Assembly (NCBI GenBank): GCA_963779225.1
Contig: CAVZWW010000003.1
Location: 1,503,835-1,567,834, forward strand
From: an uncultured Bacteroidota bacterium
Lineage (GTDB): Bacteria > Bacteroidota > Ignavibacteria > UBA10030 > UBA6906
Length of the DNA stretch: 64,000 bases
Reading direction: 5' to 3'
Made by a program: the position numbers and the translations under genes. This document shows, one piece after another, positions 9,945-56,139 of this stretch (positions are counted from its first letter, which is position 1; each line of letters begins with the position of its first letter). The notes beneath the pieces are model-generated. The model was not told the origin of the DNA and made no database searches. It saw only the letters and a program-made list of their open reading frames with translations.

Positions 9945-10028
9945 GATTCCGGAAATCCCGGTTTTCGTCGTTTTCGTTTGACAATGAAGACCGCCGTTTG
10001 TAGATTTCGTCAGTGATAATTCCCAGGC

Positions 10029-10053: not shown

Positions 10054-10061
10054 GTGTGAAT

Positions 10062-10081
10062 TGATGTTAGCGCTAACATCA
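10062..10081. promoter_or_regulatory. Perfect 20-bp palindrome TGATGTTAGCGCTAACATCA; candidate LacI-family operator (site 1 of 3), 91 bp upstream of galT.
   Basis: The core TGTTAGCGCTAACA fits the generic LacI/CcpA-type operator pattern TGnnAnCGnTnnCA with a central CG. An identical 20-mer occurs at 12636-12655 and the 14-bp core at 56126-56139. Confidence 0.5.
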
Positions 10082-10171: not shown

Positions 10172-11200
10172 ATGAACCTTGCAGATCACCCTCACAGGCG
10201 ATACAACCCCCTCTCCGGAGAATGGATACTCGTGTCGCCCCACAGGACAAAACGGCCCTGGCAAGGCAAACAGGAACCTCTGGGTGACCTTCATCGTCCG
10301 GCGCACGATCCGGACTGTTACCTGTGTCCCGGCAATACCCGTGCCGGCGGCCATAAGAACCCGGACTATACGGGGACCTACGTCTTCACCAACGACTTTG
10401 CAGCGCTCCTCCCGGATGGTCCGGTTACATCCGCCACTCCCCATCCGCTCGTCAGGTATGAAGGAATTCAGGGGACGAGCCGGGTTGTCTGCTTTTCGCC
10501 GCGACACGATCTCACGCTCCCGGAGCTTGCGATCCCTGAAATACGTCAGGTGGTTGACACCTGGGTACGGGAGTCGGCTGAACTGGGCAAGCTCTACCGC
10601 TGGGTCCAGATTTTTGAAAACAAGGGTGAGATGATGGGATGTTCGAACCCCCACCCTCATGGGCAGATCTGGGCGGGGTCGTCATTGCCCGCCGAACCGG
10701 CAAAGGAACATCGCCAACAGCGGGAGTATCTCACGCAGACCGGGGCGATCCTCTTGTTGGACTACCTGCGGTACGAAGTTGAATGCTCCGAGCGGGTCGT
10801 GCTGGAAAACACACACTGGGTTTGCCTGGTGCCATTCTGGGCGGTGTGGCCCTTCGAAGTGGTACTCCTTCCCCGGCGGCATGTTCTGCGTCTGACAGAC
10901 CTGATGGAGGGGGAACGGGACATGCTTGCAGACATCCTCAAGCGTCTTCTGACACGCCTTGACAATCTTTTTCAGATTCCCTTTCCGTATACATTCGGCT
11001 GGCACGGTGCACCGTATCAGGAACATGCCCCCGAATTCTGGCAGCTCCATGCGCATCTGATGCCCCCGCTTCTCCGTTCTGCCACCGTGCAGAAATTCAT
11101 GGTCGGCTATGAGCTGCTTGCGGAGCCTCAACGTGACATTACACCCGAACAGGCCGCCGCGACGATGCGGACTATGCCGGAGGTTCGATTCCAGCCGTGA
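10172..11200 (+). CDS. galT: galactose-1-phosphate uridylyltransferase
   Basis: [25 protein letters not shown], a CxxC zinc motif and the active-site HPHGQIW motif are present. The ORF track start at 10013 is replaced by the in-frame ATG at 10172, which matches the usual GalT N-terminus. Confidence 0.9.
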
Positions 11201-11325
11201 CACCGATTCCGGCCATGGGGCACGTCTCTGGCCCCGGCTGCGTCACGGTGTTGACTCTCCGGAGCATTGGAGCCATAGCTCTCTTTCCCCACTATGTTCT
11301 TCACCATTAAGAAGGAACTCCCGTC

Positions 11326-12474
11326 ATGAAGTTCGCCAGACCGGTACTTCGGTATGCACTCGTCCTGATCATTGCAAGTTTGAGTGGGTGTTCAAAAAGA
11401 ACGGAGGAGGCCGGAGTCATGAAACCGCAACCCTTTGGAACCACGGCCGACGGAGCAGAGGTTTCCCTCTATACGCTGAAGAACCGCGCCGGCATGGAGG
11501 CGACAATCACAAACTACGGGGGGATCGTTGTCTCGCTACGTGTGCCGGACAGGATGGGGAAGTTCGACGATGTAGTGCTTGGATATGAATCCCTCACAGG
11601 GTATCTCAAAGAGACACCGTATTTCGGTGCGCTGATCGGGAGGTACGGGAACCGTATCGCCAGGGGGAAGTTCACGCTCAATGGGAAGGGATACTCCCTT
11701 GCGACAAACAACGGCAAGAATCATCTGCACGGGGGCCTGAAAGGTTTTGACAAGGTGGTCTGGACGGCCGAGCAGACAGAGACGCCGGCGGGTCCTTCGC
11801 TTGTGCTCACCTATCTGAGCAAGGACGGTGAAGAAGGATATCCGGGCAATCTGCGGGTACGGGCGGTCTACACCGTTACCGAAGCCAATGAACTCGCCGT
11901 GGAGTTTTCAGCGACGACCGACAAACCGACGGTGGTGAACCTGACGCATCATTCATACTTCAATCTTGCCGGTGCCGCATCGCCGACAACCATTCTCAAC
12001 CATACCATCATGATCGATGCGGACCGGTTCACGCCGATAGACAGCGGCCTGATCCCCACGGGTGAGCTGCGGGAAGTTACTGGAACCCCGATGGATTTCA
12101 GGACCCCGACGCCTATTGGTGCCAGGATAGATGTGGCTGACGAGCAGCTGCGGTTTGGCCTGGGGTATGATCACAACTGGGTGTTGAACAAGAGGGACCA
12201 GGGCATGAGGCTGGCGGCACGGGTGGAGGAGTCCACGACGGGAAGAATTCTGGAGGTTCTGACTTCGGAACCGGGGATACAGTTCTACTCGGGGAATTTT
12301 CTGGACGGCACGCTGGTGGGCAAGGGGGGGAAAGCATACGTGTACAGGTACGGCTTCTGCCTGGAGCCCCAGCATTTCCCCGATTCGCCGAACAAACCGG
12401 ACTTCCCGACCGTCGTGTTGAATCCCGGGCAGACGTACGGGCACAAGATATTGTATAGATTTCTGGTCAGGTAG
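11326..12474 (+). CDS. galM: aldose 1-epimerase (galactose mutarotase), lipoprotein
   Basis: A lipobox (LSGC) is present. GalM motifs include YGGIVVSLRVPDRMG, GALIGRYGNRIA, NHLHGG and THHSYFNL. Confidence 0.85.
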   Translation: MKFARPVLRYALVLIIASLSGCSKRTEEAGVMKPQPFGTTADGAEVSLYTLKNRAGMEATITNYGGIVVSLRVPDRMGKFDDVVLGYESLTGYLKETPYFGALIGRYGNRIARGKFTLNGKGYSLATNNGKNHLHGGLKGFDKVVWTAEQTETPAGPSLVLTYLSKDGEEGYPGNLRVRAVYTVTEANELAVEFSATTDKPTVVNLTHHSYFNLAGAASPTTILNHTIMIDADRFTPIDSGLIPTGELREVTGTPMDFRTPTPIGARIDVADEQLRFGLGYDHNWVLNKRDQGMRLAARVEESTTGRILEVLTSEPGIQFYSGNFLDGTLVGKGGKAYVYRYGFCLEPQHFPDSPNKPDFPTVVLNPGQTYGHKILYRFLVR

Positions 12475-12516: not shown

Positions 12517-12548
12517 GTGACTTTATAATTGACTTTACCATTGACTTT
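12517..12548. repeat. Three tandem 12-bp direct repeats (GTGACTTTATAA / TTGACTTTACCA / TTGACTTTCTGA) in an AT-rich island.
   Basis: Read directly from the sequence. The helical-turn spacing and the TTGAC cores suggest a promoter or transcription-factor binding array. The repeats lie about 330 bp upstream of the 12880 operon and about 90 bp upstream of operator site 2. Confidence 0.4.
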
Positions 12549-12635
12549 CTGATCAGTAAGTGGTAAAATTTGGCTAATCCTCTATGTATTTCTGAAATTA
12601 CACGCTGGCTCTTGCGGCCCATGTTGTGTGTGGAC

Positions 12636-12655
12636 TGATGTTAGCGCTAACATCA
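12636..12655. promoter_or_regulatory. Second copy of the palindrome TGATGTTAGCGCTAACATCA (LacI-type operator candidate), 225 bp upstream of the 12880 gene.
   Basis: Identical 20-mer to site 1. Both copies are preceded by a GTGTG-containing stretch. Confidence 0.5.
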
Positions 12656-12879: not shown

Positions 12880-15042
12880 ATGAAATCCCGGTTCTCTTTG
12901 TTTGCCATAGTCGCACTGGCGGTGGTCAGTACCGTCGGGCTTCGTGCGCAGGGGCTCGAGCCGATTGGCGGTCCATACACCGTTGACTCGAACACGGTGG
13001 TGCTGCTGCACTTTGACAGCACACTGGTGAATGCCGCTGCAACAGTCGGCAAGACCGCTGCCGCCGCTGTTTCCCACACCACCAACCCGGCCAAGATTTA
13101 CTACATCAACAACACCGGCGTTACCGGTATGGGGAAATGCATCCGTCTGGACAACAGCGCCAGCACTGATTCAACGTACCTCATGGTGCCGGATACCGCG
13201 GCGTTGGATCTGACCGGCAGCTGGACCATTGAAGCCTGGGCGAACATCTTCACGTTTGGAGACAATGCCCAGGACTATCGCTGGGTTCCGCGTGTGTGCA
13301 TGAAACCCGCCGACGTGACGTTCTATGATGGCGCCAACTGGTGGATGGAAATGTGGGGCGACAGTCGTTCGTTCCAAACAGGTTATGTCGCAGAGTCAGG
13401 ATCGTACGTGACGACGTCGTCTCCCGCCAATATGTTCGTTCCGGGAGAATGGGTCCACCTGACGTTTATTCGCGACACCGCGCGTTCGTTTATCGCGGTC
13501 ATGGTTCATGATAAGGACAAAAACCTAAGAGGATTTATCACGCAGGGCTTTACCAAAGGCGATCAGCCACGTACAACGAAGCAGGCGGTGCACATAGGGT
13601 GGGCAGGAGCGGTTGGCATCACCAATGCAAGCAACGATTCATGGCTCGACGGATTTATTGATGAACTCCGCATCAGCAAAGTGGTCCGGAATTTTGCTGG
13701 ACCTCCGGTCATTTCGAACAAGATCATACTTCCAAACCAGCCGTCGACCGCAGGGTCCTATCCCGTCAGCGTCACTGCGTTCCCGCTCAATGCCGGCGGA
13801 AGCATCACGAGCGCAATGCTGATGTACCGCACCGACACCGTGAGTGCATTCAGCAGCGTCACCCTGAGCGCGGGTCCCAACGACACGTTCACCGGCGCCA
13901 TCCCCGGCCAGGCGTTCGGCACGATTGTGCAATACTACTACAAGGTGACGGACAACAACAGCCTGTATTCTCTGTTCCCGTCCAATGCTGAAACGACGAC
14001 CAATCCAACCCGGCTGTCCTTCGGTATCTATCAACCCAATTCGATGACGCTTGATCTGACATTCGAGGAAGGTCCGACCAACCCCCCGATCGACCATTCC
14101 CCGAACAACTGCACGATCGTTACGCGCGTACAGAAGGATTATTCGACGGACGTTCCGACGGGCGGCGGCACCTACTCGTGGCAGTTAAAGACCCACCCGG
14201 GAATCCTTATTGATTCCAACTGGGTTGAGGCTGTTTCGCCCTTCCTCGCGGCGGAAGAGTTCACACTAGACTGCTGGATCAAGGCAGACTCCGCCGACAG
14301 GCATGCAACACGGATCATCATCAACCCGTCTGCAGAGCAGGACTGGAATAACGCCAACTTCGAGCTGAGTTTCCGCAACGGTGCAACCCTCCCCGTCTTC
14401 ACTGCTCGATACTGGAACAATGACGGTTCCGGTGCGCCCACTCTGCAGGACACGCTTGTCGCAGGGACGGCACATGTCGGCAAATGGCGGCATGTCATCA
14501 TCGAGAGGAATAAGACGAGCAGCGAGTTCGCCATGGCAATCAAGGATGAGAACGACGTACTGATGTTCAAGAAGGTCGTCGCCGCGCCAAAACCCCCGCT
14601 GATGGCCGGTGCACCTCTCCGTATCGGACGGTCGTGGTTCGACGCTGCCGATAATTACTATGTCGCTCCCTTCCGCGGAAGAATCGACAACGTCAAGGTG
14701 TACAACTATCCGGCGGCCGGGATTACCACTTCAGTGGATCCTGGGGCCGGCGAAACCACACCGTACACGTTCGATCTGGCTCAGAACTATCCGAACCCGT
14801 TCAACCCGACCACGCGGATTGAGTTTGTGGTGCCGAAGGCGATGACTGCACAGCTCATCGTGTACGACGTGCTCGGCCGCGCGGTGAAGACGCTGTTCAA
14901 CGAAGAGACGCATGCCGGTTCGCACTTCGTTCAATGGGACGGCACGAACCAGGGTGGCCTGGGCGTGGCGAGCGGCGTCTACTTTGCCCGTTTGAGAGCG
15001 GGAGATTTCGAGAAGACGATGAAGATGATGCTCATGCGATGA
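12880..15042 (+). CDS. secreted T9SS cargo protein with two LamG/concanavalin-A-like lectin domains and a C-terminal T9SS sorting domain
   Basis: A signal peptide is present, together with the motifs IDELRISKVVRNF and IDNVKVYNY. The C-terminus ...QNYPNPFNPTTRIEFVVP...SGVYFARLRAGDFEKTMKMMLMR is a canonical type-A T9SS sorting domain. A GGAGGG ribosome-binding site is present. Confidence 0.8.
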   Translation: MKSRFSLFAIVALAVVSTVGLRAQGLEPIGGPYTVDSNTVVLLHFDSTLVNAAATVGKTAAAAVSHTTNPAKIYYINNTGVTGMGKCIRLDNSASTDSTYLMVPDTAALDLTGSWTIEAWANIFTFGDNAQDYRWVPRVCMKPADVTFYDGANWWMEMWGDSRSFQTGYVAESGSYVTTSSPANMFVPGEWVHLTFIRDTARSFIAVMVHDKDKNLRGFITQGFTKGDQPRTTKQAVHIGWAGAVGITNASNDSWLDGFIDELRISKVVRNFAGPPVISNKIILPNQPSTAGSYPVSVTAFPLNAGGSITSAMLMYRTDTVSAFSSVTLSAGPNDTFTGAIPGQAFGTIVQYYYKVTDNNSLYSLFPSNAETTTNPTRLSFGIYQPNSMTLDLTFEEGPTNPPIDHSPNNCTIVTRVQKDYSTDVPTGGGTYSWQLKTHPGILIDSNWVEAVSPFLAAEEFTLDCWIKADSADRHATRIIINPSAEQDWNNANFELSFRNGATLPVFTARYWNNDGSGAPTLQDTLVAGTAHVGKWRHVIIERNKTSSEFAMAIKDENDVLMFKKVVAAPKPPLMAGAPLRIGRSWFDAADNYYVAPFRGRIDNVKVYNYPAAGITTSVDPGAGETTPYTFDLAQNYPNPFNPTTRIEFVVPKAMTAQLIVYDVLGRAVKTLFNEETHAGSHFVQWDGTNQGGLGVASGVYFARLRAGDFEKTMKMMLMR

Positions 15043-15073
15043 GCAGGGAATTCGTGTTTTGCTAAAGAATTAA

Positions 15074-15130
15074 GCCCGCAGGGCAGGGGCCCCCGGTTGC
15101 ATAGAGCAGCCGGCGGGCCCTGCCGGCGGG
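15074..15130 (+). terminator. GC-rich imperfect hairpin after the 12880 gene (possible terminator or attenuator)
   Basis: GCCCGCAGGGCAGGGGCCC ... GGGCCCTGCCGGCGGG. The arms pair imperfectly and no T-tract follows. Confidence 0.25.
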
Positions 15131-15155
15131 TGTACATTGACCGATCGGGGCGCGT

Positions 15156-15806
15156 ATGCCGAAGAGGTACAGTCTATTCGTTCCCGCCATCATCCTTGCG
15201 GGAGTTCTCCTGTCCTGCAGAACAAGTGTCGAACCCTCTCCTGAGCCCGGCATCATCAGGGTGACGCTGAAGGGTGCGGACTGGGACACGAGCATCGTCA
15301 TCCAGAATGACACGTCGAAGTTTTCACGATGGGACAAGTTTGACGTGATGGTCTCACAGGGCAGATTGTACCAGGGCGAAATCTATGCGTACATCTACAA
15401 CAATCCGAGCAGTGAACGGAAGGCGAGCGACACGGCGAATATTCTCGGGCGGGAATGGCTGGACGGAACACCGATTACCACGGGCGATACGGCCACCATC
15501 ACACCGGCGAACAGCCGGTTCCGGAAGTACCTCGTGTTTGAATCCTATGCGCCTCCCGGTACGTATGACAGGATTTCTCTGTCGCTGGTTGCCTATGAGA
15601 TGGAGATCTTCATCCCCAAACACTATCTCAATCCGGTCATGCTCCCGCCCGACGTGGCGCCCGGCATAGATTTTCCCGGTACGTATACAATCACCGAAAA
15701 CGGTGTGACCGAAGTCGAGCTCGAGCTGGCTCCATACCAATCCCTGGTGCGGTATCAGGATATGTATTACTTTGAACGCAAAATCGCTGTTGTCGATGTG
15801 CACTAG
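15156..15806 (+). CDS. hypothetical lipoprotein
   Basis: The signal peptide carries a Cys (LLSC). No motif was recognised. Confidence 0.55.
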   Translation: MPKRYSLFVPAIILAGVLLSCRTSVEPSPEPGIIRVTLKGADWDTSIVIQNDTSKFSRWDKFDVMVSQGRLYQGEIYAYIYNNPSSERKASDTANILGREWLDGTPITTGDTATITPANSRFRKYLVFESYAPPGTYDRISLSLVAYEMEIFIPKHYLNPVMLPPDVAPGIDFPGTYTITENGVTEVELELAPYQSLVRYQDMYYFERKIAVVDVH

Positions 15807-15881
15807 CATGACATCCACAGGGCGGGCAGATGCGGTTCTGCACCCCTGTCTGACCGGAGTATCGATGACTACAGGTGTCTT

Positions 15882-17366
15882 ATGAAAAGACGGTTCACGG
15901 TTCCGGTGCTCTTGTTTACGCTGCTGCTTGCTGTTGTGCACATTTCCTGCGAACGGCCAACAGATCCGCCAAACCCCAACGGCCCGCCTCAAACGAAGCT
16001 GGCAAATGTCCCCAAGGAGTTTGACACCGTCTTTGCCCTGGTGAACATGAGCTGGAGCGGCGGAGACAATGACGGGTTTATCACGAACTACCAGTACCGG
16101 TACTTCACCTACCATCTTATGCCCGGGTCGAGCACGGAATGGGTGCTCTTCGATTCCACGGCCTGGAAGGACACCGTCGGGACAGGAGTGCTGCTTGCCT
16201 TCAATTCCACCGAAGCCCTCAACAAGCAACTTTTCTTTGTGCGTGCGGTGGATAATGACGGCAACCCTGATCCAACGCCGGCGGTGAAGGTTCTCTACAC
16301 GGTGAGAACGGTCTCGCCGATCACGAGGATCCTATCCCCGACGAACAATGGCAGCGTTCTCGTGAGTACGACCGTCACCGACTGGTGGAATGGCGTGCTG
16401 GTTATTTTCAAGGCCACGGATCCCACGGGTCTTGCCCAGATTGTGGAATATGCATGGGCGGTGGACGACGGCCCGTGGACCTGGCAGAAGGATACGTCGG
16501 TGTTCATCACTCCGGAGAAATTCGCGGCGCCACTCAACGGCATACACGAAGTGAAGGTGATTTCGCGCAATAACACCAACCTGATAGATCCCGTGGGCGA
16601 TTCGATCAGTATTAATCTGATTATTCCTCCGTTCAACAAGGGCATCCTGATCATCGACGAAACTGATGAATTCAACAATCCCTTTATCACCCTGGGGATC
16701 CCCGATTCGGTGACCGATGCATTCTACGCCCAGGTGTTCCCCGGCTCCGCGAGCTGGGATTTCAAAACTCAGGGGATGCCTCCCCGCGAAGTCATGGCGC
16801 AGTACAGGCTTGTGGTCTGGCATGCCGATGATGTCCCCACCAGCCGCCCCCACAAAATTTCCGATCCGGCGAACATCGAAGTGTTCACCGACTACCTGAA
16901 GGTGGGGGGAAAATTTCTGATGAGCGGCTGGCGGATCCTGAAATCATTCGCCTACTACAACAACTTCCCCTTTACATTCTCTTCGGGATCGTTCGTGTAC
17001 GATTATCTGCATATCCGCATGGTCACCGAGACAGATATTCTGGGCGACATGTCGGGGGGGAAGGGAAAGACCGGTGTGTTCAGCAGCTTCAAGGTGGATT
17101 CCACGCGCCTGGCGTTTTTCCCGTACAACGGCCGGTTGTCGCAGGTGAATCTGATTATCACCATGGCGGGCTTTACGGATATCCTCTATTCCTATCAAAA
17201 CGACGACAGCAGTCCCAATGTCACCTACCGGGGACGTGCGGTTGCCCTGCGGTACTACGGCACGGTTTACGATGCCGTGGTACTCGGTTTTCCGATGTAT
17301 TTCATAGATGAGAACGATGCAAAGGTCATGGCAAAAGAAATTGTCCGGAGTCTGCATGTCGAGTGA
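15882..17366 (+). CDS. hypothetical secreted/lipoprotein (494 aa)
   Basis: The signal peptide ends in ISC. The protein is predicted beta-rich and no motif was recognised. It overlaps the next gene by 11 nt. Confidence 0.6.
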   Translation: MKRRFTVPVLLFTLLLAVVHISCERPTDPPNPNGPPQTKLANVPKEFDTVFALVNMSWSGGDNDGFITNYQYRYFTYHLMPGSSTEWVLFDSTAWKDTVGTGVLLAFNSTEALNKQLFFVRAVDNDGNPDPTPAVKVLYTVRTVSPITRILSPTNNGSVLVSTTVTDWWNGVLVIFKATDPTGLAQIVEYAWAVDDGPWTWQKDTSVFITPEKFAAPLNGIHEVKVISRNNTNLIDPVGDSISINLIIPPFNKGILIIDETDEFNNPFITLGIPDSVTDAFYAQVFPGSASWDFKTQGMPPREVMAQYRLVVWHADDVPTSRPHKISDPANIEVFTDYLKVGGKFLMSGWRILKSFAYYNNFPFTFSSGSFVYDYLHIRMVTETDILGDMSGGKGKTGVFSSFKVDSTRLAFFPYNGRLSQVNLIITMAGFTDILYSYQNDDSSPNVTYRGRAVALRYYGTVYDAVVLGFPMYFIDENDAKVMAKEIVRSLHVE

Positions 17367-20169
17367 GCATGCTGCACGATTGAGGCGTAGATCGCGAAGA
17401 CGCCTGCCGGCCCGCTGTGGTGCGGCCTTCCTGGCGTTTCTGCTCTGTCTCACGGCAGGGATGGCCCAGAATACCGGGAAGATCGCAGGGACGGTGAAAG
17501 ACAAAGCCAATGGAGAGCCTCTCGTCGGTGCAAACGTCGCCATTAAAGGGACGATCCTCGGTGCATCAACCGACATCGACGGGCACTTCTTCATCCTGCG
17601 TGTTCCTCCCGGCGTACACGATGTGCTGGTCACAAGCGTTGGCTATCAGGGCATAACCGTGAAGGGTGTGCGTGTGCAGGTGGATCTCACCGCGGAGGTC
17701 AGCATCAAGCTCGAGCAGACGAGCATCGAGGTTGAGGGAGTGACCGTTACCGCCGAACAGAAGATGGTGCAAAAAGATGTCACGTCGACACGCCGGACGG
17801 TGTCGCAGAGCACTATCCGTGCAACACCGGGTCTTGACGCGACGACGGACATCTTCAAATTGCAGGGCGGAACGGTACTCACCGCAGCCCCTCCGACACT
17901 CCGCCTTGCCGACGGAACACAGCTGCAGGTTCGTGACGAGAGCCTCCAGGATGTGCACATACGCGGCGGACGCGGCGGCGAAATCCTGTACATGGTGGAC
18001 GGTATGCCGATGACCCATCCGATCTACGGTGGACGGAGCGTCATGGATCTGAACCTGGTTGACGTGGAAAGCGTGGAGCTCCTGACCGGTGCTTTCAATG
18101 CCGAGTACGGCCAGGCGCAATCCGGTGTGGTCAATATTATCACAAGAAGCGGCGGCGAACAGTTCCACGGCGGCGTGGAGTACAAGACCGACCGTGCAGG
18201 CGTGTTTGGCGAATCGTATTTCACGGACTATACATCCCTGTATATCGGCGGGCCTGAACCGCTCACACAGGTTCTCCTCCCTGCCCTCGGTCTCGACCCC
18301 GGCCGCGGATTGACCTTCTTTCTTTCGGGCAATACAACGCTGACCAATACGCCCTATGACAACCACCGCACCCGTGGCGACCTTGATCTGCTTGCCTGGA
18401 CGTTTCCCGAACGGCAGGACAATGCGGTGAACCTGAACGCCAAACTGAACTGGGATATCAGCGGGGAACAAAAACTCGCCTTGAGTTACCATGGGTCCCG
18501 GAAACAGTGGAGCAGCTTCGACTGGTTGTGGATCAACTCGCCTGACAACACCGCCGACTACAAACGTACCAACTATGCATTGAACGCCTCGTTCAATCAG
18601 GTCCTCTCAAGAGCAACCTACTTCACATTGATGGCGGGATACCTTGACGTCGTGTACAAAGGTTCACTGAGAGGCCAAGCCCCCCCCGATTTTTGGCGGA
18701 CGGATAGTACCGGCCGGCTTATTCCCTTGTACAATTCCCCCACGATTGATCCCAGTACCGGCTTCTATGATGAGAGCGGTGTAGAGTCCATTTGGCGGGA
18801 TGACCACACCAAAACGTTTACATTTAAAGGCGATATGACGTCGCAAGTGCATCCGGCGCACATGATCAAGACCGGCCTGGAATTCTCCTATAACACACTC
18901 AGCTATATCGACATACAGGACGGCGGAACAAAACTGTCGAAATACGGCCAGGGAATCGATTCCGTGCCGCCACCCGGACCGTACCCGTTGTTCGGCCAGA
19001 ACCGCTGGGTTTTCGACGTCAAACCGACGATCGCTTCGGCGTATGTCCAGGACAAATTTGAACTGGAGTACCTTGTCCTCAACGCAGGTGTGCGCATCGA
19101 CTACTTCAACCTCGGGAAAACCGTGATGGAGAGCGGGTGGCAGACGGCGTGGGAGGCGGCGACTGGACTGCCGGCAGACTGGAAGCAACAGATCTTCAAA
19201 GTGAGTCCCCGTTTTGGGATCTCCTTCCCGATCTCCGAGAATACCGTCGTCTTCTTCTCTTACGGACACTTCAACCAGCTGCCTGAATTGCAGTATTACT
19301 ACCGTGATCCGTACAGCAGCACCTTTACAGGAAATCCGGGATTGGATTATGAGCAGACCATCCTGTATGAGTTTGGATTTACGCATCAGCTGACGGATTA
19401 CTGGGCCTTCGATATCAAGAGCTACGGAAAGGACATTTCCAAACAGATCGGAACCACGCGCGTGTACGGAACGGAGGGAACGCCGGTTGACCTGTACGAC
19501 AACAAGGGATACGGCCGTGCCCGGGGTCTCGAATTCGAGATAGTGAAAAATCCTTCGGACTTCATCGCCGGGCGGGCCACCTACACGATCCAATGGGCGA
19601 ACGGCTACTCATCGTCGGCGTTCGACGACTACGTACGATCGACCAACAACTTCCCTTATCCGATCCGCGAACGGGCGCTGGAATGGGATACACGTCACCA
19701 GGTGATCGTGCAGGCAAGCCTGGCGGCCGGGCTGCGTCAGTATCCGAATGTCTTTGGTTTTGAATTACCTGATGACTGGAACCTGACCATGCTCTACCGG
19801 TTCTCCACGGGGACGCCGTACACACCGGGCGAGGCCACGCTGAACCCGGTCGAACTGCAGAAGCAGGAAAACACAAGGTACGGGCCGTATACCAGCAGCG
19901 CTGATCTGAAATTCGAAAAGGGTTTCACTCTGGCCGGCGTTCGTCTGGCATTCACGGTGGACGTGTTCAACCTTTTTGACCAGCGGAACGTCCAGACCGT
20001 GCGGTCGGATATCGGGTTTAACCAGTGGACCGGAGAACCATACCGGTACGGAGACATCCAGGAGCCGCAGGATAACTTCTATGACTACTACACAATGGTC
20101 AGCATACGCGATCCCCGTGTGTTTTCCACCGGGCGGACAACAAAACTTGGTGTGAGGGTGGATTTCTAA
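17356..20169 (+). CDS. TonB-dependent outer-membrane receptor with an N-terminal carboxypeptidase-regulatory-like domain
   Basis: The signal peptide is followed by TGKIAGTVKDKANGEPLVGANVAIKG (a CarbopepD_reg-like domain), a plug domain and a long barrel that ends in the aromatic ...KLGVRVDF. No SusD-like gene follows. Confidence 0.85.
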   Translation: MSSEHAARLRRRSRRRLPARCGAAFLAFLLCLTAGMAQNTGKIAGTVKDKANGEPLVGANVAIKGTILGASTDIDGHFFILRVPPGVHDVLVTSVGYQGITVKGVRVQVDLTAEVSIKLEQTSIEVEGVTVTAEQKMVQKDVTSTRRTVSQSTIRATPGLDATTDIFKLQGGTVLTAAPPTLRLADGTQLQVRDESLQDVHIRGGRGGEILYMVDGMPMTHPIYGGRSVMDLNLVDVESVELLTGAFNAEYGQAQSGVVNIITRSGGEQFHGGVEYKTDRAGVFGESYFTDYTSLYIGGPEPLTQVLLPALGLDPGRGLTFFLSGNTTLTNTPYDNHRTRGDLDLLAWTFPERQDNAVNLNAKLNWDISGEQKLALSYHGSRKQWSSFDWLWINSPDNTADYKRTNYALNASFNQVLSRATYFTLMAGYLDVVYKGSLRGQAPPDFWRTDSTGRLIPLYNSPTIDPSTGFYDESGVESIWRDDHTKTFTFKGDMTSQVHPAHMIKTGLEFSYNTLSYIDIQDGGTKLSKYGQGIDSVPPPGPYPLFGQNRWVFDVKPTIASAYVQDKFELEYLVLNAGVRIDYFNLGKTVMESGWQTAWEAATGLPADWKQQIFKVSPRFGISFPISENTVVFFSYGHFNQLPELQYYYRDPYSSTFTGNPGLDYEQTILYEFGFTHQLTDYWAFDIKSYGKDISKQIGTTRVYGTEGTPVDLYDNKGYGRARGLEFEIVKNPSDFIAGRATYTIQWANGYSSSAFDDYVRSTNNFPYPIRERALEWDTRHQVIVQASLAAGLRQYPNVFGFELPDDWNLTMLYRFSTGTPYTPGEATLNPVELQKQENTRYGPYTSSADLKFEKGFTLAGVRLAFTVDVFNLFDQRNVQTVRSDIGFNQWTGEPYRYGDIQEPQDNFYDYYTMVSIRDPRVFSTGRTTKLGVRVDF

Positions 20170-20186
20170 GCAGAAAGAGAACTCTT

Positions 20187-21956
20187 ATGCGTGTGTGGAA
20201 GAGAGTCGTGTTGCTGTCCTGTTCCGTCCAGCTGCTTGCCGCCGGCATGGCGAGCGCACAATCGACGAAACTGGATTGGGCGATGACCACCACAGGCAAG
20301 ATGCGGCAGGTGATCACCAACATGGGGACATTCGACAAAGGACGCACGAATTATCCCGGCCTCATAAACGCCGAATTCCCGGCCGGGAGCGACGAGGAAC
20401 ATCTCTTCCAGGGGGGCATCTGGGTCGGCGGCATCACGCCGACGGGCGACACTCTGGTCTCTCAGTCGGAAGCGCACTTCACCGCGCATGAATTCTATCC
20501 ATCTGCCAACGCTTGGGACACCATATGGACGGGGTCGAAGGGGGACACGCTGGACATCCCCTACTGGCCCGGCTATGAATGCATTTCCGACCAGGATTTC
20601 GTCTGCCGCTATAGTGACTACAACCTGTTGAATATCGACAATCATACACCGTTGTATCTTGACGTCGTGCAAACGACATACTCGTGGAGCTCGGCGGGGT
20701 TGGACGAATTTCTGCTGTATAAGTACTACATCGTCCCCAAGAAGTTCCCCATCAAGAACATGTATATCGGGTTCTGGATGCACAGCGCGATCGGGAATGT
20801 CGGGGCGACCGACAACTTCATCGACGAATTTACGCGCTACTTTCCGCAGTACCACCTGGCGATGGCTGAGGACTCCAAGGGCGGGAGCGACGGCCAGGCG
20901 ATCAGCCCCATAGGGTTCAGCGTCCTCGCTCCCACGACAAATGTCGCCAGCTGGAGCTTTAACTATTACGAACATGAGGAACTTCCGAGTAGGGATCCGG
21001 CGTGCTACACTGTCATGGCGAGCGGCAACATCATGCCGGACCGGCTTGAACGCGCACGTGCCCATATCATCTATGCGTTTGGTCCATTTCAGGCCGAAGT
21101 CGGCGACACGATCGTCGTCGAGATGGGTGAGATTTTCGGTCTTGGTGTAGCCGGTGCGTTGAACAACGCCGAATACTTGCAGTTCCTCAAGAGCAAGAAT
21201 TTCCGCGTTCCTGCACCACCCCCGAAGCCCGCACTTCGTGTGACCACCAGCAGTCACGAGGTGAGCCTGGACTGGACCCCGCTACCCGGCGGGGTAAATC
21301 CGGAAACGTACACAGACGCGAACCGCGGGGATACAGTAAAATACCCCTTCGAAGGGTATCGTCTGTACCGGAGCACCAAGGGGAGCGACGGCCCATGGAC
21401 CCTCCTTGCGGAGTACGACATTCTCAACGACATCGGCTACAACACCGGTCTCCAGTATACGTATAGGGATGCGGGTTTGCTGAACAACGTGGAGTACTAC
21501 TATACGCTGACGTCGTTTTCACAACCCGACAAGGTGATCAAATTCGCCTCGCAGGAGACCGGACTCTCTGCGAACGCAAAAGTCATCGTCCCGGGAACAG
21601 TCCCTCCTCAAACGGTGGGGGAGGTGGCGGCTGTGCCCAATCCTTACCGGGGGGATCTCCCTTACAGCTCGTACAATCCCCCCTGGGAACGGCCGCAGGG
21701 AAACCGTCCGTGGTGGATGGAACAGGACCGTCGTATACAATTCATCAATCTGCCGGCCCAGTGCCAGATCAAGATCTTCACGCTCGCCGGAGATCTCGTA
21801 AACACGCTCGAGCATGCAGATCCGAACAAAGGATATGAAGACTGGAATCTGACCTCCTCGATCGGTCAGGCGATTGCCAGCGGCATCTACCTTTTTACGG
21901 TTGAAGACCGCGTAAATGGGAATGTGCAGGTGGGGAAATTCGTCATCATAAAGTAG
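20187..21956 (+). CDS. secreted protein with a fibronectin-III-like domain and a variant T9SS C-terminal sorting domain
   Basis: The signal peptide ends in AAGMASAQ. An FN3-like segment (EVSLDWTPLP...YRLYRS) is present. The C-terminal approximately 80 aa (...IQFINLPAQCQIKIFTLAGDLV...ASGIYLFTV...GKFVIIK) is T9SS-sorting-domain-like. Confidence 0.65.
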   Translation: MRVWKRVVLLSCSVQLLAAGMASAQSTKLDWAMTTTGKMRQVITNMGTFDKGRTNYPGLINAEFPAGSDEEHLFQGGIWVGGITPTGDTLVSQSEAHFTAHEFYPSANAWDTIWTGSKGDTLDIPYWPGYECISDQDFVCRYSDYNLLNIDNHTPLYLDVVQTTYSWSSAGLDEFLLYKYYIVPKKFPIKNMYIGFWMHSAIGNVGATDNFIDEFTRYFPQYHLAMAEDSKGGSDGQAISPIGFSVLAPTTNVASWSFNYYEHEELPSRDPACYTVMASGNIMPDRLERARAHIIYAFGPFQAEVGDTIVVEMGEIFGLGVAGALNNAEYLQFLKSKNFRVPAPPPKPALRVTTSSHEVSLDWTPLPGGVNPETYTDANRGDTVKYPFEGYRLYRSTKGSDGPWTLLAEYDILNDIGYNTGLQYTYRDAGLLNNVEYYYTLTSFSQPDKVIKFASQETGLSANAKVIVPGTVPPQTVGEVAAVPNPYRGDLPYSSYNPPWERPQGNRPWWMEQDRRIQFINLPAQCQIKIFTLAGDLVNTLEHADPNKGYEDWNLTSSIGQAIASGIYLFTVEDRVNGNVQVGKFVIIK

Positions 21957-21988
21957 TCCAGCCTTTGCGCACTTGAAGGTGAAGAGCA

Positions 21989-22909
21989 ATGAAACGGACG
22001 TGGATAGCTCTGCTGGTGCTGGTGCCCGGACTTCTGTTCGGGCAGTATAACCGTCCAGGCAGCACAGACGCGCAATTCCTGAAAATCGGGGTCAGCGCGC
22101 GCGGAGCGGGGATGAGCGATGCCTACATCGCCGTCGTGGACGGGGCGGATGCCACGTACTACAATCCGGCAGCCTTGCCCTGGCTTAAGAAAACCGATGT
22201 GGTCTTCAACCATACGTCCTGGTTTGCAGGGATCAACCATGAATTTGTCGCCGCTGCCTACAACTTCGAGGATCTCGGCGCATTCGGCATGTCCGTGACT
22301 GCACTCAGTACCGACGAAATGAAAGTCCGTACTCCCCTCCAGCCGGAAGGTACCGGCGAGACCTTTTACTCGGCGAACTACCGGTTCGGACTGAGCTATG
22401 CCCGCTTCCTGACCGACCGGGTAACCTTCGGCCTGACGGTGAGCTATATCAACATGAAGCTCTACCAGGAATTTTCAGCTCATGCGTTTTCCCTCAACAT
22501 CGCGGTGATGTATCTCTCCGACTTCCGGGGCTTCCGGTTCGCCCTCGAGATAGCGGATTTCGGGTCAAGCATTCAATATGTCAACGAGTCGTACCCTCTC
22601 CCGACAAATTTCAAGTTCGGCCTGGGGATGAATGCCATCGATGGGGACAATCAGAAACTGCTGGTGAGTTTCTCGGCCATCAAACCGAACGAGGGCGAAC
22701 CACAAGCGCAGGCGGGCATGGAATGGAATTTCATGAACACGTTCTTCGTCCGCGGAGGATACAGATTCAATTACTCGGCAGCCACCTATTCTCTCGGCGG
22801 CGGTGTTGCCTTCGATCTCGCCGGGATTGGCATGCGGGCGGACTATGCATTCAATAATTACACCACTCTTGGAGGCAGTCACCGGTTCGGCCTCGGTCTG
22901 TCGTTCTGA
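21989..22909 (+). CDS. PorV/PorQ-family outer-membrane beta-barrel protein
   Basis: A signal peptide is followed by GVSARGAGMSDAYIAVVDGADATYYNPAAL, which matches the conserved PorV/PorQ N-terminal motif. The sequence has alternating beta-strand character and ends ...GLSF. Confidence 0.6.
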   Translation: MKRTWIALLVLVPGLLFGQYNRPGSTDAQFLKIGVSARGAGMSDAYIAVVDGADATYYNPAALPWLKKTDVVFNHTSWFAGINHEFVAAAYNFEDLGAFGMSVTALSTDEMKVRTPLQPEGTGETFYSANYRFGLSYARFLTDRVTFGLTVSYINMKLYQEFSAHAFSLNIAVMYLSDFRGFRFALEIADFGSSIQYVNESYPLPTNFKFGLGMNAIDGDNQKLLVSFSAIKPNEGEPQAQAGMEWNFMNTFFVRGGYRFNYSAATYSLGGGVAFDLAGIGMRADYAFNNYTTLGGSHRFGLGLSF

Positions 22910-22955
22910 TGGTGCGCGTCCTCGGCCGCCTCATATAACTACGGTGCGGCCCCGC

Positions 22956-25316: not shown

Positions 25317-25463
25317 CGGCTCTGGAACAGGACGGGAAAATCCGGGTCGCTGCAACTGCGGCAAGCCAGGCGGGTGTCCTGACCCTCCGGGGACGAAATG
25401 CGACCGTTTACCGCTTCCGGCTTTCTTCCCTGCACAGTGCTCCTTGAGAAAGGTGACAGAACC

Positions 25464-28193: not shown

Positions 28194-28204
28194 ATGGAGC
28201 TCCT

Positions 28205-29725
28205 ATGTCGCCGACCTTTCGCAGTTGTCATGTCGTCTTGTCCGTCTTCCTCTGCACTGTAGTAGCCCCGGCTGCCGGCGCGCAGAATATCCGTTCGGTA
28301 ACAATCTCAACGTCTCCTGGAATGACGATCACCGGCTACGTCGGGGCAGGTGGCGAGCAGGTCAAACTGTCTGTACCGCTGCCTGTCTTCACCTGCACGG
28401 TGAATGAGAAGCCCGTAAGCGCGCTCTCGTTCCGTGCAGAGCGGACAGGAGACAGTATCCGGTGGGAATCTTCCATCGGATTGTCAGGTGGCTTGCGTGT
28501 GGACAATGGATTCGGTCATGGCTGGAAGGCCACAGTGACATTTCACAATGTATCGCGTGACACGCTTCAGCTCGCCAACGTTGTTCCCCTGGGCGAAGGT
28601 TCTGACCGCGTGTTCATTCGCGCCGCCGGGCCCCAGACGTACCAGTTCCGTCTGAGCCGGTCCGCCCTCTTCCGCCCGGGAGTCGGACCGATCGGCGTCG
28701 TGTTGCCCGACAATGCCTGGGAAATGGGGTTCTGTGATGTCCCCGCCGACCGTGGGAAATCCCTGACGGCCATTGCGCGGCGTCTGGATTCTGCACAGGC
28801 CGATTTGCGGAGATTCCGTGCTGCTCTCCCCCCCGGCGGATGGGTGCAGTACATCTTCTACGCGGATGATCACACGGGCGACTGGCGGGCCGGCCTGCGC
28901 ATGATGTTCCAGGAACGATGGCTGTACGACCTTGACAGGTTCGACAACGCTCTTTTCGAACGAACGGACCTTGCCTGGATCCGGAGGAGTTATTTGCTTC
29001 TTCTCCAGTTTGCCTGGGACTCGGACTATTACGATGCGATGGCGGGACGATACCGGTACGATCAGTTCCTCGCCGGCCGTGGCGCCGCGCTGGGCGGCTT
29101 CGAAGCATATATGATCTGGCCCACGTGGCCGCGGCTCGGGCTGGATCAACGGAACCAGTGGGACATGTATCGTGATTTACCCGGAGGCACGGCGGAATTG
29201 CAGAGGCAGGTCCGGTATGCGCACGGACTGGGTACCCGGTACTTCATTGCCTATAATCCATGGGACGAGAGCACCCGGCGGGAAGATCATCTTACGGGGA
29301 TGGAACAGATGCTCCGGACGCTGAACGCCGACGGTGTTGTGCTGGATACCTGGGGGCAATCGAGCAAGGAGTTCCAGGCTGCAGCAGATCGCGTGAAGCC
29401 CGGCGTGGTGCTCTATAGCGAGGGGATGGCAATACCGAAGGATATGCCCGGGATTGTCGCCGGACGGGTTCACGATGCGATCTACATGCCTCCCCCCTTG
29501 AATTTGAACAAGCTCATCAAGCCCGAATTCGCCATCTTCCGTGTCATCCAGCTGGCGGAAGGCAGGATTCATCGCGAAATTGCGGTCTCGCTCTTCAACG
29601 GCTACGGGACGGAATTGAACATCATGCGACCGGGGCGGCCCGATTGGATAGACGAGGAACTGAGCGTATCTCGGAAAGACAACCAAGATCCTGCGCGAAA
29701 ACTCAACCGCCTTTCTCTCGCGTGA
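28205..29725 (+). CDS. secreted hypothetical protein, possibly a TIM-barrel glycosidase-like domain
   Basis: A signal peptide is present and a GGAG ribosome-binding site lies 7 nt before ATG 28205; track start 28190 overlaps the previous stop in an ATGA. No firm motif was recognised. The reading frame ends 11 nt before the FGE-domain ORF begins, and the two ORFs' open frames overlap over 29664-29725. Confidence 0.5.
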   Translation: MSPTFRSCHVVLSVFLCTVVAPAAGAQNIRSVTISTSPGMTITGYVGAGGEQVKLSVPLPVFTCTVNEKPVSALSFRAERTGDSIRWESSIGLSGGLRVDNGFGHGWKATVTFHNVSRDTLQLANVVPLGEGSDRVFIRAAGPQTYQFRLSRSALFRPGVGPIGVVLPDNAWEMGFCDVPADRGKSLTAIARRLDSAQADLRRFRAALPPGGWVQYIFYADDHTGDWRAGLRMMFQERWLYDLDRFDNALFERTDLAWIRRSYLLLLQFAWDSDYYDAMAGRYRYDQFLAGRGAALGGFEAYMIWPTWPRLGLDQRNQWDMYRDLPGGTAELQRQVRYAHGLGTRYFIAYNPWDESTRREDHLTGMEQMLRTLNADGVVLDTWGQSSKEFQAAADRVKPGVVLYSEGMAIPKDMPGIVAGRVHDAIYMPPPLNLNKLIKPEFAIFRVIQLAEGRIHREIAVSLFNGYGTELNIMRPGRPDWIDEELSVSRKDNQDPARKLNRLSLA

Positions 29726-29735
29726 CTGGGTTCCC

Positions 29736-31013: not shown

Positions 31014-31036
31014 CTTGTCTGCAGAAGGAGAGATGC

Positions 31037-32998: not shown

Positions 32999-33012
32999 CC
33001 GGGAGTTTCACC

Positions 33013-35160: not shown

Positions 35161-35190
35161 ATGTATCTGCCAACAGGAGAGGAAATCAAC

Positions 35191-40655: not shown

Positions 40656-40658
40656 GCA

Positions 40659-42682: not shown

Positions 42683-42698
42683 GCCGCAGGGGATGCAC

Positions 42699-45003: not shown

Positions 45004-45006
45004 TCG

Positions 45007-49030: not shown

Positions 49031-49048
49031 GATGAGCAGTGCTTCCTT

Positions 49049-54333: not shown

Positions 54334-54339
54334 GGCGGA

Positions 54340-56124: not shown

Positions 56125-56125
56125 A

Positions 56126-56139
56126 TGTTAGCGCTAACA
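56126..56139. promoter_or_regulatory. Third copy of the operator core TGTTAGCGCTAACA, immediately upstream of the minus-strand symporter-GH38-GH3 operon.
   Basis: Exact 14-bp core shared with sites 1 and 2. It is positioned over the 5' UTR and start codon, consistent with repression. Confidence 0.45.

What the first reader, a model, noticed from the sequence alone, without database searches (positions are those of the whole stretch)
10062..10081. A 20-bp perfect palindrome (LacI-type operator) occurs three times and links galT-galM, the T9SS/TBDR glycan array and a convergent GH3-GH38-symporter operon into one candidate regulon
TGATGTTAGCGCTAACATCA is present identically at 10062-10081, which is 91 bp upstream of galT, and at 12636-12655, upstream of the 12880 operon. 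Its 14-bp core TGTTAGCGCTAACA recurs at 56126-56139, abutting the start of the minus-strand symporter/GH38/GH3/URO-D operon. The core fits the LacI/CcpA operator pattern TGnnAnCGnTnnCA with a central CG, and a LacI-family gene lies inside the array at 40659.

Three exact copies in 64 kb of GC-rich DNA are far beyond chance. The positions, upstream of operon heads and once overlapping a start codon, argue for a repressor-controlled regulon. This gives a concrete regulatory model for the island.
Basis: seen in the sequence. Interest (0 to 1): 0.6.

Follow-up and report, generated by a model that had tools for sequence, protein, structure and literature searches.

The report
LacI-type operator shared by three sugar operons
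A short DNA palindrome that occurs three times in this window is very probably the binding site of a LacI-family sugar repressor that co-ordinates three neighbouring carbohydrate-utilisation operons; it is a sound but ordinary example of a textbook kind of gene switch.

Summary
TGATGTTAGCGCTAACATCA occurs exactly at 10062-10081 and 12636-12655, and its 14-bp core occurs at 56126-56139. There are no degenerate copies, and shuffled sequence gives about zero.

All three copies lie between a conserved sigma-70-like promoter and the first gene of an operon:
- galT-galM;
- a roughly 35-kb same-strand T9SS/TonB-receptor/glycosidase cluster that contains the only LacI-family gene in the window;
- a symporter-GH38-GH3 operon.

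In metagenomic and MAG relatives (62-87% protein identity) the intergenic DNA has diverged, but the palindrome is kept at the orthologous positions. TGTTA, CG and TAACA are invariant in 15 sites.

The same 18-mer occurs 87 times across other phyla, against about 9 expected. It lies directly next to a LacI-family gene in 24 of the 80 loci listed. It matches the published E. coli GntR and Rhodobacter CceR operators.

The window's LacI shares the MTVSR recognition-helix signature of E. coli GntR; many regulators next to the 18-mer have M or I at that position. Its neighbours are ribokinase and ribose pyranase.

Verdict: a genuine LacI-family operator and small regulon, a new member of a known kind. 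Two points remain inferred: that this LacI is the binder, and how repression works. One detail is wrong: the third site does not overlap a start codon.

The parts
10062..10081 (.). Operator 1: the perfect 20-bp palindrome TGATGTTAGCGCTAACATCA, 91 bp before the galT ATG and about +59 from the predicted transcription start.
   Evidence: Exact match. It is conserved upstream of galT in L151 and upstream of galK-galM in L189.
12636..12655 (.). Operator 2: the identical 20-bp palindrome, 225 bp before the ATG of the first gene of the 35-kb glycan cluster and about +70 from the predicted transcription start.
   Evidence: Exact match. It is conserved 177-236 bp upstream of the orthologous head gene in L209, L189, L190 and L170.
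56125..56140 (.). Operator 3: ATGTTAGCGCTAACAG, with the exact 14-bp core at 56126-56139. The core ends 25 nt upstream of the symporter ATG at 56100 (minus strand) and lies about +120 from the predicted transcription start.
   Evidence: Exact core. The same position is kept in L210 (exact 18-mer) and in L212 (1 mismatch).
40671..41768 (+). LacI-family regulator gene (365 aa) and candidate binder. Its helix-turn-helix reads LGLSTMTVSRALN. It is followed by a ribokinase gene with a 4-bp overlap.
   Evidence: Pfam finds LacI plus Peripla_BP domains. The exact protein, P0001, is on record. It lies below the cut-off of every NCBIfam equivalog; the best is RbsR.
9978..10006 (+). Predicted sigma-70-type promoter of galT-galM (TTGACA, 17 nt, TAGATT).
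   Evidence: Consensus scan, 10 of 12 matches. TTGACAAT...TAG(A/T)TT is also present in L189, and TTGACA...TATGAT in L151.
12541..12569 (+). Predicted promoter of the glycan cluster (TTGACT, 17 nt, TG-TAAAAT).
   Evidence: Consensus scan, 10 of 12 matches. ATTGACTTT is invariant in all 5 aligned relatives.
56259..56287 (-). Predicted promoter of the symporter operon (TTGACC, 17 nt, TACATT).
   Evidence: TTGACCTTT and CCTACATT are invariant blocks in the window/L210/L212 alignment. Coordinates were read.
10172..12474 (+). Target operon 1: galT and galM (Leloir pathway).
   Evidence: Pfam.
12880..47815 (+). Target cluster 2: about 20 same-strand genes with gaps of at most 114 bp. It includes T9SS-secreted lectin-like proteins, a TonB-dependent receptor, a PorV-like protein, GH63-like, GH172, GH116-like and GH31 enzymes, LacI, ribokinase, URO-D/MtaA-like proteins and ribose pyranase.
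   Evidence: ORFs; Pfam and NCBIfam. The cluster shows no excess of internal promoter-like or terminator-like sites, apart from one hairpin at 43871-43897.
48014..56100 (-). Target operon 3: SSF symporter, GH38 alpha-mannosidase, GH3 and a URO-D-like protein.
   Evidence: Pfam. Synteny is conserved in L210 and L212.

Best explanation
The palindrome (consensus gATGTTAgCGcTAACATc) is the DNA operator of a dimeric LacI-family repressor. The most likely binder is the RbsR-like LacI encoded at 40671-41768 inside the glycan cluster.

Without inducer, the repressor would bind the three operators. They lie in the transcribed leaders, 45-120 nt downstream of conserved sigma-70-type promoters. Binding there would block RNA polymerase as a roadblock, or hinder promoter clearance. 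This would shut off galT-galM, the 35-kb T9SS/TonB-receptor glycosidase cluster (and so the repressor's own gene), and the symporter-GH38-GH3 operon.

A sugar or sugar phosphate released from the target glycan would bind the periplasmic-binding-protein-like domain and release the repressor. Candidates are ribose or ribose-5-phosphate, given the adjacent ribokinase and ribose pyranase, or galactose.

Shown here: the sites exist, they are non-random, they are conserved at orthologous positions, they have the LacI-family form, and the same sequence accompanies LacI genes elsewhere.

Inferred: which protein binds, repression rather than activation, the roadblock mechanism, the inducer, and autoregulation through a single long transcript.
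For: 1. **Not chance.** The 20-mer occurs twice and the 14-mer three times, against 0.00 and 0.08 expected.

2. **Canonical form.** The element is an even 20-bp palindrome with a central CG. Of 1303 LacI-TF motifs, 1251 are even palindromes of 16-22 nt and 1173 have a central CG (PMC4052901).

3. **Conserved at orthologous positions.**
   - Site 2 is kept upstream of the head-gene orthologue in L209, L189, L190 and L170 (87-74% aa identity).
   - Site 1 is kept upstream of galT (L151) and of galK-galM (L189).
   - Site 3 is kept at the identical distance from the symporter ATG in L210 and L212.
   - In the site 2 and site 3 alignments only the promoter hexamers and the palindrome are long conserved blocks. 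At site 1 the palindrome is conserved, and the TTGACA hexamer was recognised by eye.
   - In more distant relatives (L193, L208), tandem copies follow directly after the -10 of an SSF-galK-head-gene operon.
   - Across 15 sites, TGTTA, CG and TAACA never vary. Only the position two bases either side of the centre does.

4. **The same sequence accompanies LacI genes elsewhere.** The exact 18-mer gives 87 stretches in the species-representative genomes, against about 9 expected; that expectation is my own calculation, 596 Gb divided by 4^18. Of the 80 loci listed, 32 carry a LacI-family ORF within 8 kb, and in 24 the ORF is directly adjacent.

5. **Matches characterised operators.** E. coli GntR binds ATGTTACCGATAACAG, with consensus ATGTTACCCGTAACAT (PMC10450161). 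Such sites are present at gntK. R. sphaeroides CceR sites confirmed by ChIP and EMSA include GCCGTTAGCGCTAACAGGC (PMC4323418).

6. **Recognition helix.** The window LacI reads S-T-M-TVSR and E. coli GntR reads T-K-M-TVSR. Regulators adjacent to the identical 18-mer mostly read S-x-(M/I/Q)-TVSR. A 41%-identical paralogue in relatives that lack the motif reads S-V/A-S-TVSR and sits next to a different palindrome, CGCAAACGTTTGCA.

7. **Gene context.** It is the only LacI-family gene in the window. It lies in the same-strand cluster headed by site 2, with no excess of internal promoter or terminator signals before it. On one relative's 89.7-kb contig, a LacI orthologue and a symporter orthologue carrying the conserved operator appear to co-occur, judging from the matching contig lengths.
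Against: - No operator lies within 14 kb of the LacI gene here, or within 10 kb of its orthologues in L001, L003, L215 and L216. The link between regulator and site therefore rests on operon membership and the helix signature.
- Another LacI paralogue elsewhere in the 3.75-Mb genome, for example a GalR-like one, could be the real binder.
- Some regulators next to the same 18-mer have other residue pairs: H-Q in several actinobacteria, A-Q in one, and I-A in another. The helix signature is suggestive, not diagnostic.
- The operators lie downstream of the predicted promoters, which is a less common place for repression. The promoters are consensus predictions only.
- L211 (a scaffold gap upstream of its LacI) and L214 (only a degenerate TGTTCCTCATAACA) do not show a clear site.
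- The genome-wide distribution in the source genome was not obtained.
Confidence: 0.85

Rival explanations
1. The palindrome is a LacI-family operator, but a different LacI paralogue encoded outside the window binds it, for example a GalR-like galactose repressor. The LacI at 40671 would then control something else.
For: - No site lies near the LacI gene or its orthologues.
- The regulon includes Leloir-pathway genes (galT and galM here; galK in L189, L193 and L208), which GalR-type LacI regulators classically control.
- Very different LacI subfamilies use the same 18-mer, so the sequence alone does not identify the binder.
Against: - The window LacI has the M-TVSR helix seen in GntR and in several regulators adjacent to the motif.
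- It sits in the cluster headed by operator 2.
- It appears to co-occur on a relative's 89.7-kb contig with a conserved operator (contig lengths).
- No other regulator gene was found next to any of the 15 related sites.
Confidence: 0.25
2. The palindrome works as an RNA hairpin in the 5' leaders, in processing, stability or translational control. All three copies lie downstream of the predicted promoters and would be transcribed.
For: - The predicted transcription starts put the sites at about +59, +70 and +120.
- The 20-mer can form an 8-bp stem with a GCGC loop (seen in the fold).
- The only variable positions are in the would-be loop.
Against: - The stem never shows a compensatory change: its sequence is invariant in 15 sites across relatives of 62-87% identity. 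That fits base-specific protein contacts rather than structure.
- In L193 and L208 one copy abuts the -10 and the transcription start.
- In other phyla the identical sequence lies in promoter regions of LacI genes or just after them.
- There is no Rfam match, and the galT leader does not fold better than shuffled sequence (z = 0.49).
Confidence: 0.04
3. The palindrome is a REP-like or otherwise dispersed repeat, or a recently duplicated promoter module, with no regulatory role.
For: - Sites 1 and 2 share 29 of 32 bases, including a left flank (TTnTGTGTGnAnTGA...) beyond the palindrome (family D8). This could reflect duplication.
- The source genome could not be scanned as a whole.
Against: - All three copies are 5' of operon heads, and none lies after a gene or inside one.
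- Similarity does not extend beyond about 32 bp.
- The sites are retained at orthologous positions in diverged relatives whose flanks are not conserved.
- The form and the neighbourhood are those of LacI operators.
Confidence: 0.03

Closest known systems
E. coli GntR/IdnR (LacI family) operators, consensus ATGTTA-N4-TAACAT
   Same: The half-sites are identical (ATGTTA / TAACAT) with the same spacing. The recognition helix is shared: x-M-TVSR in GntR and S-T-M-TVSR here. Both are repressor-type sugar-acid or sugar regulons.
   Different: The regulator here is only 29% identical to GntR. It scores far below the GntR and IdnR equivalog cut-offs (116 bits against 433, and 104 against 500). The targets are glycan-degradation, Leloir and ribose genes, not gluconate genes. 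The central four bases here are GCGC.
CceR (GapR, RSP_1663) of Rhodobacter sphaeroides, a LacI-family regulator of central carbon metabolism
   Same: Sites verified by ChIP-seq and EMSA contain GTTAGCGCTAAC; the zwf site is GCCGTTAGCGCTAACAGGC. The effector is a sugar phosphate, 6-phosphogluconate (PMC4323418). The many alphaproteobacterial hits to the 18-mer (Thalassospira, Stellaceae) are probably of this type.
   Different: CceR is a global regulator, acts as both activator and repressor, and is usually not clustered with its targets. Here the regulon is local, as far as can be seen, and lies in an organism of the FCB group.
RbsR-type local LacI repressors (ribose operon)
   Same: RbsR models give the best, but sub-threshold, family matches. 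The gene is followed by a ribokinase, and the cluster ends with a D-ribose pyranase; both score above their equivalog cut-offs.
   Different: The score is 207 bits against a cut-off of 531, so this is not an orthologue. The operator differs from the E. coli rbs operator as I remember it (a GAAACGTTTC-type site, recalled from memory and not checked here). There is no rbsACB transporter. The regulon covers a 35-kb T9SS/TonB-receptor glycosidase cluster.
CcpA/cre in Firmicutes (TGWAANCGNTNWCA)
   Same: A 14-bp palindrome with a central CG. cre sites often lie downstream of promoters and act as roadblocks (established knowledge). CcpA is the closest solved structure (E = 1e-49).
   Different: Position 4 differs from the cre consensus (T here, A in cre). 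The regulator scores 188 bits against the CcpA cut-off of 442. Nothing here points to an HPr-Ser-P co-repressor system, and the taxon is different.

Membership tests
LacI-family transcription-factor binding site (operator) | Even palindrome of 16-22 nt | tested here: met
   A perfect 20-bp palindrome occurs twice, and a 16-bp conserved consensus holds over 15 sites. The criterion is from PMC4052901.
LacI-family transcription-factor binding site (operator) | Central CG pair | tested here: met
   CG is invariant at the centre of all 15 compiled sites.
LacI-family transcription-factor binding site (operator) | Located in the upstream region of the regulated operon (over 75% of known sites lie between -140 and -30 of the start codon) | tested here: met
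   The site centres are at about -100 (galT), -234 (head gene) and -32 (symporter). Site 2 lies outside the modal range, but its position is conserved at -177 to -236 in relatives.
LacI-family transcription-factor binding site (operator) | Conserved as an island in alignments of orthologous upstream regions (phylogenetic footprint) | tested here: met
   Alignments A1-A3: the palindrome is a long invariant block at all three sites. The promoter hexamers are also invariant at sites 2 and 3.
LacI-family transcription-factor binding site (operator) | A cognate LacI-family regulator is encoded in the genome, usually near its targets, and is often autoregulated (72%) | tested here: inconclusive
   A LacI gene lies inside the cluster headed by site 2. 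It is 28 kb from that site and has no site of its own. Co-transcription is inferred only from the small gaps and the lack of internal signals.
LacI-family transcription-factor binding site (operator) | Direct, effector-sensitive binding by the regulator | not testable with these tools
   This needs EMSA, DAP-seq or ChIP with the purified protein.
GntR/IdnR/CceR-type operator class (half-site ATGTTA) | Half-sites ATGTTA / TAACAT separated by 4 bases | tested here: met
   The consensus from 15 sites was compared with the published GntR and CceR sites and with the E. coli gntK region.
GntR/IdnR/CceR-type operator class (half-site ATGTTA) | The regulator is orthologous to GntR, IdnR or CceR | tested here: not met
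   Identity to E. coli GntR is 29%. The scores are below the cut-offs for GntR (116/433 and 176/400) and IdnR (104/500). The site works like one of this class, but the regulator is not a member of those orthologous groups.
RbsR (ribose repressor) orthologous group | Score above the equivalog cut-off | tested here: not met
   207 bits against 531, and 202 against 382.
REP / dispersed palindromic repeat | Many copies, typically at the 3' ends of genes or between convergent genes, with no link to gene function | tested here: not met
   There are three copies in 64 kb, all 5' of operon heads with related functions, and they are conserved at orthologous positions. The whole-genome copy number was not obtainable.

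The most novel reading that the evidence does not exclude
In this Ignavibacteria-like lineage of the FCB group, one RbsR-like LacI repressor, acting from roadblock positions deep in the 5' leaders, would be the master switch of a very large (about 35 kb) T9SS/TonB-receptor glycan-degradation cluster together with Leloir, ribose-salvage and MtaA-like (possibly sugar O-demethylation) genes. Such a regulatory design would differ from the hybrid two-component, SusR and ECF-sigma control that is typical of Bacteroidetes polysaccharide-utilisation loci. It would also give an entry point for finding the unknown glycan substrate.
Probability: 0.3. Interest if true: 0.4.

Novelty: new member of a known kind. 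Interest (0 to 1): 0.27.

Why it matters
The finding gives a concrete and cheaply testable regulatory model for a large carbohydrate-utilisation island in an uncultured or little-studied FCB-group bacterium. The island is only partly annotated.

The model comprises three operators, one candidate repressor and a short list of candidate inducers (ribose, galactose). Because the operator is conserved in relatives, it can be used as a search key. With it one could delimit the regulon across Ignavibacteria-like genomes and infer which glycan the GH63-like, GH172, GH38, GH31 and GH3 enzymes attack.

It does not change what is known about LacI-family regulation.

Tried and rejected
1. **LacI-anchored loci.** L001, L002, L003, L215 and L216 have no site within 10 kb. 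This is uninformative, because the gene lies deep inside the cluster in these relatives, as it does here.

2. **Enumerating the regulon in the source genome.**
   - The exact GalM protein is not on record.
   - The exact LacI protein is on record, but only on contigs without retrievable DNA.
   - Collection scans list at most 80 loci, so I used the 18-mer rather than the 14-mer. The source genome was not among the 80 of 87 stretches listed.

3. **L211.** A LacI orthologue heads an operon that contains the symporter, but a run of N lies upstream of it, so no conclusion is possible.

4. **L214.** Only a degenerate TGTTCCTCATAACA lies upstream of the symporter.

5. **RNA reading.** There is no Rfam family in the window, the galT leader does not fold better than shuffles, and the stem shows no covariation.

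6. **Literature.** A full-text search for the exact 14-mer found no paper.

7. **A -10 inside the operator.** I considered that TAACAT within the operator, paired with the shared TTGTGT-like left flank, forms a second promoter that the operator overlaps. The spacing and sequence of that flank are not consistent across relatives, so I dropped the idea.

8. **DNA looping between sites 1 and 2.** I considered this (they are 2574 bp apart) but did not test it. I saw no obvious LacI-like tetramerisation heptad in the C-terminus; this was judged by eye only.

Full report
**Observation**

The 20-mer TGATGTTAGCGCTAACATCA is present exactly at 10062-10081 and 12636-12655. No other match exists at up to three mismatches, and 100 dinucleotide-preserving shuffles gave none.

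The 14-bp core TGTTAGCGCTAACA occurs exactly three times: 10065, 12639 and 56126. There are no copies with 1-2 mismatches; shuffles gave 0.08 expected, and none of 100 shuffles reached three. The relaxed form TGTTA-N4-TAACA with one mismatch finds the same three sites.

**Surroundings**

- galT (10172-11200) and galM (11326-12474).
- A same-strand array from 12880 to 47815, with intergenic gaps of at most 114 bp. It encodes:
  - lectin-like proteins with T9SS sorting domains;
  - a TonB-dependent receptor and a PorV-like protein;
  - several GH63/MGH1-like enzymes, a GH172 (DUF2961), a GH116-like protein and a GH31;
  - three URO-D/MtaA-like proteins;
  - a LacI-family regulator (40671-41768);
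  - a ribokinase and a D-ribose pyranase, both above their equivalog cut-offs.
- On the minus strand, an SSF symporter, GH38, GH3 and a URO-D-like gene (56100 down to 48014).

The window has about 58% G+C. Its proteins have their closest relatives in unnamed Ignavibacteria, Bacteroidota and Calditrichota metagenome-assembled genomes. The exact LacI protein is on record on a 3.75-Mb contig.

One detail of the finding is wrong. The third site abuts only the longest possible ORF (TTG at 56124). Nearly all of the listed orthologues of the symporter are 586 aa, which fixes the start at ATG 56100, behind a GGGAG ribosome-binding site. The operator therefore ends 25 nt before the start codon and does not overlap it.

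**Conservation in relatives**

I anchored on the first gene of the cluster to recover metagenomic loci. I also used two Bacteroidota genomes that the 18-mer scan hit.

*Site 2.* The palindrome sits 177-236 bp upstream of the orthologous head gene in four kinds of relative:
- L209 (87% aa identity, exact core);
- L189 (82%, one mismatch);
- L190 and L170 (74%, exact 18-mer).

*Site 1.* It is found upstream of galT in L151 and upstream of galK-galM in L189.

*Site 3.* It is kept at exactly the same distance from the symporter ATG in L210 (87%, exact 18-mer) and L212 (79%, one mismatch).

In the alignments of the site 2 and site 3 regions, the only long invariant blocks are a sigma-70-like promoter (-35 TTGAC[C/T]TT plus a -10) and the palindrome. 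The mean column identity is about 60%. At site 1 the palindrome is the one long conserved block. The TTGACA hexamer there is shared with L151, and with L189 by eye.

In more distant relatives (L193 and L208, 62-65%), two copies lie 58-59 bp apart. The first follows directly after the -10, and both precede an operon of SSF symporter and galK that runs into the same head gene.

Across the 15 sites, TGTTA, the central CG and TAACA never vary. Only the position two bases either side of the centre does. These sites were retrieved with up to three mismatches allowed, so the restriction of changes to one position is informative.

A third group of relatives (L195, L197, L199 and L207, 64-67%) lacks the motif. 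Instead it carries a 41%-identical LacI paralogue upstream, with a different palindrome (CGCAAACGTTTGCA) at its start.

**What kind of element**

The form is that of a LacI-family operator. In a survey of 1303 LacI-family regulators, 1251 motifs were even palindromes of 16-22 nt and 1173 had a central CG. Most sites lay between -140 and -30 of the start codon, and 72% of the regulators were autoregulated (PMC4052901).

The exact 18-mer GATGTTAGCGCTAACATC gives 87 stretches in the species-representative genome collection. My estimate of the chance expectation is about 9 (596 Gb divided by 4^18). The hits include Thalassospira, a Stellaceae genome, Halomonas, Pseudomonas, Collimonas, Bordetella, many actinomycetes, a Chloroflexota genome and Firmicutes.

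Of the 80 loci listed, 32 carry a LacI-family ORF within the 8-kb stretch. In 24 of them the site lies within about 300 bp upstream of that gene or within 250 bp after its 3' end.

The sequence also matches characterised operators:
- E. coli GntR binds ATGTTACCGATAACAG, with consensus ATGTTACCCGTAACAT (PMC10450161). Two such sites lie between gntR and gntK in MG1655.
- R. sphaeroides CceR binds sites such as GCCGTTAGCGCTAACAGGC and TTTGTTAGCGCTAACTAGC, shown by ChIP-seq and EMSA (PMC4323418).

The many copies per genome in Thalassospira and the other alphaproteobacteria are probably CceR/GapR-type global regulons.

**Which protein binds**

The only LacI-family gene in the window is the one at 40671-41768. 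It is not an orthologue of any characterised regulator. All NCBIfam equivalog scores are far below their cut-offs; the best is RbsR, at 207 bits against 531. Identity to E. coli GntR is 29%, and the closest solved structures are CcpA and PurR.

Its recognition helix reads S-T-M-TVSR.
- E. coli GntR, which binds the same half-site, reads T-K-M-TVSR.
- The regulators directly adjacent to the identical 18-mer in other phyla mostly read S-x-(M/I/Q)-TVSR.
- The paralogue associated with the different palindrome reads S-V/A-S-TVSR.

The gene lies in the same-strand cluster headed by operator 2. Neither promoter-like nor terminator-like sites are enriched before it, so autoregulation through a long transcript is plausible. 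On one relative's 89.7-kb contig, a LacI orthologue (P0012) and the symporter orthologue (P0123) with its conserved operator appear to co-occur, judging from the matching contig lengths.

Against this, no site lies within 14 kb of the gene here, or within 10 kb in L001, L003, L215 and L216. Paralogues elsewhere in the genome could not be examined. I put about 0.85-0.9 on a LacI-family operator and regulon, and about 0.65 on this particular LacI being the binder.

**Mechanism**

The predicted promoters are conserved in relatives. They are at 9978-10006, 12541-12569 and 56287-56259.

They place the operator centres at about +59, +70 and +120, that is, inside the 5' leaders. This suggests repression by a roadblock or by hindered promoter clearance. 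That mode is known for cre/CcpA and PurR (established knowledge). In L193 and L208 one operator abuts the -10, the classical occlusion position.

The inducer is unknown. Ribose or ribose-5-phosphate are candidates because of the ribokinase next to the LacI gene and the ribose pyranase at the cluster end. Galactose is a candidate because galT and galM here, and galK in relatives, are targets.

**Rivals**

- *RNA hairpin.* This is conceivable because the sites are transcribed. However, the stem sequence never changes, and so never covaries. One copy in relatives overlaps the transcription start, and in other phyla the sequence lies in the promoters of LacI genes. There is no Rfam match, and the leader does not fold better than shuffles.
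- *REP-like repeat or recent duplication.* This is contradicted by the positions, the short extent of similarity (32 bp between sites 1 and 2) and the conservation at orthologous positions.

**Verdict**

It is an ordinary LacI-family operator and regulon, a new member of a known kind. Its value is practical: a testable regulatory model and a search key for a poorly understood glycan-utilisation island in an FCB-group bacterium.

Noticed in passing
window 12757-12790 (and the aligned positions in L209, L189, L190 and L170): The long leader of the cluster-head gene has a conserved Shine-Dalgarno-like block, AAGAAAGGAGGTGA, followed by CCGGCAC. In the window and in L209 a start-stop mini-ORF, ATG-TGA (12783-12788), follows it. 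All this lies about 100 nt upstream of the real ATG at 12880. Its function is unknown.
   Followed up: partly
window 10025-10055: A terminator-like hairpin with a T-run lies between the predicted galT promoter (9978-10006) and operator 1. The same order of promoter, hairpin and operator is seen in L151, but L189 has no hairpin. It may be the terminator of the upstream gene, or an attenuator or 5' stem.
   Followed up: partly
window 43871-43897: A strong hairpin (11 pairs, 8 of them G-C) with a T-rich tail lies in the gap between two URO-D-like genes. It may split the 35-kb array into two transcription units.
   Followed up: no
window 42699-43853, 43945-45003 and 48014-49030; L211, L214 and L216: The glycosidase cluster contains three paralogues of URO-D/MtaA-CmuA-like methyltransferases. 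Relatives add S-methyltransferase-domain and B12-binding genes. This hints at cobalamin-dependent O-demethylation of methylated sugars.
   Followed up: no
L102-L181 (hits in the genome collection): Thalassospira species and a Stellaceae genome each carry many copies of the exact 18-mer, mostly without an adjacent LacI gene. This is probably a CceR/GapR-type global regulon in Alphaproteobacteria.
   Followed up: partly
L023 66-79 and 1886-1899: A contig labelled as viral (IMG/VR) carries the 14-mer twice, each copy inside a direct repeat of about 200 bp (a duplicated upstream region).
   Followed up: partly
L195, L197, L199 and L207 (for example L195 2951-2970): Relatives whose head gene lacks the motif have a different LacI paralogue (41% identity) upstream, with a CGCAAACGTTTGCA palindrome at its start. 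This suggests that the regulator of the same cluster has been replaced.
   Followed up: partly
window 57411-57500: A 45-nt tandem duplication (84% identity) lies inside the HlyD-like membrane-fusion gene. It encodes a Gly-rich repeat.
   Followed up: no
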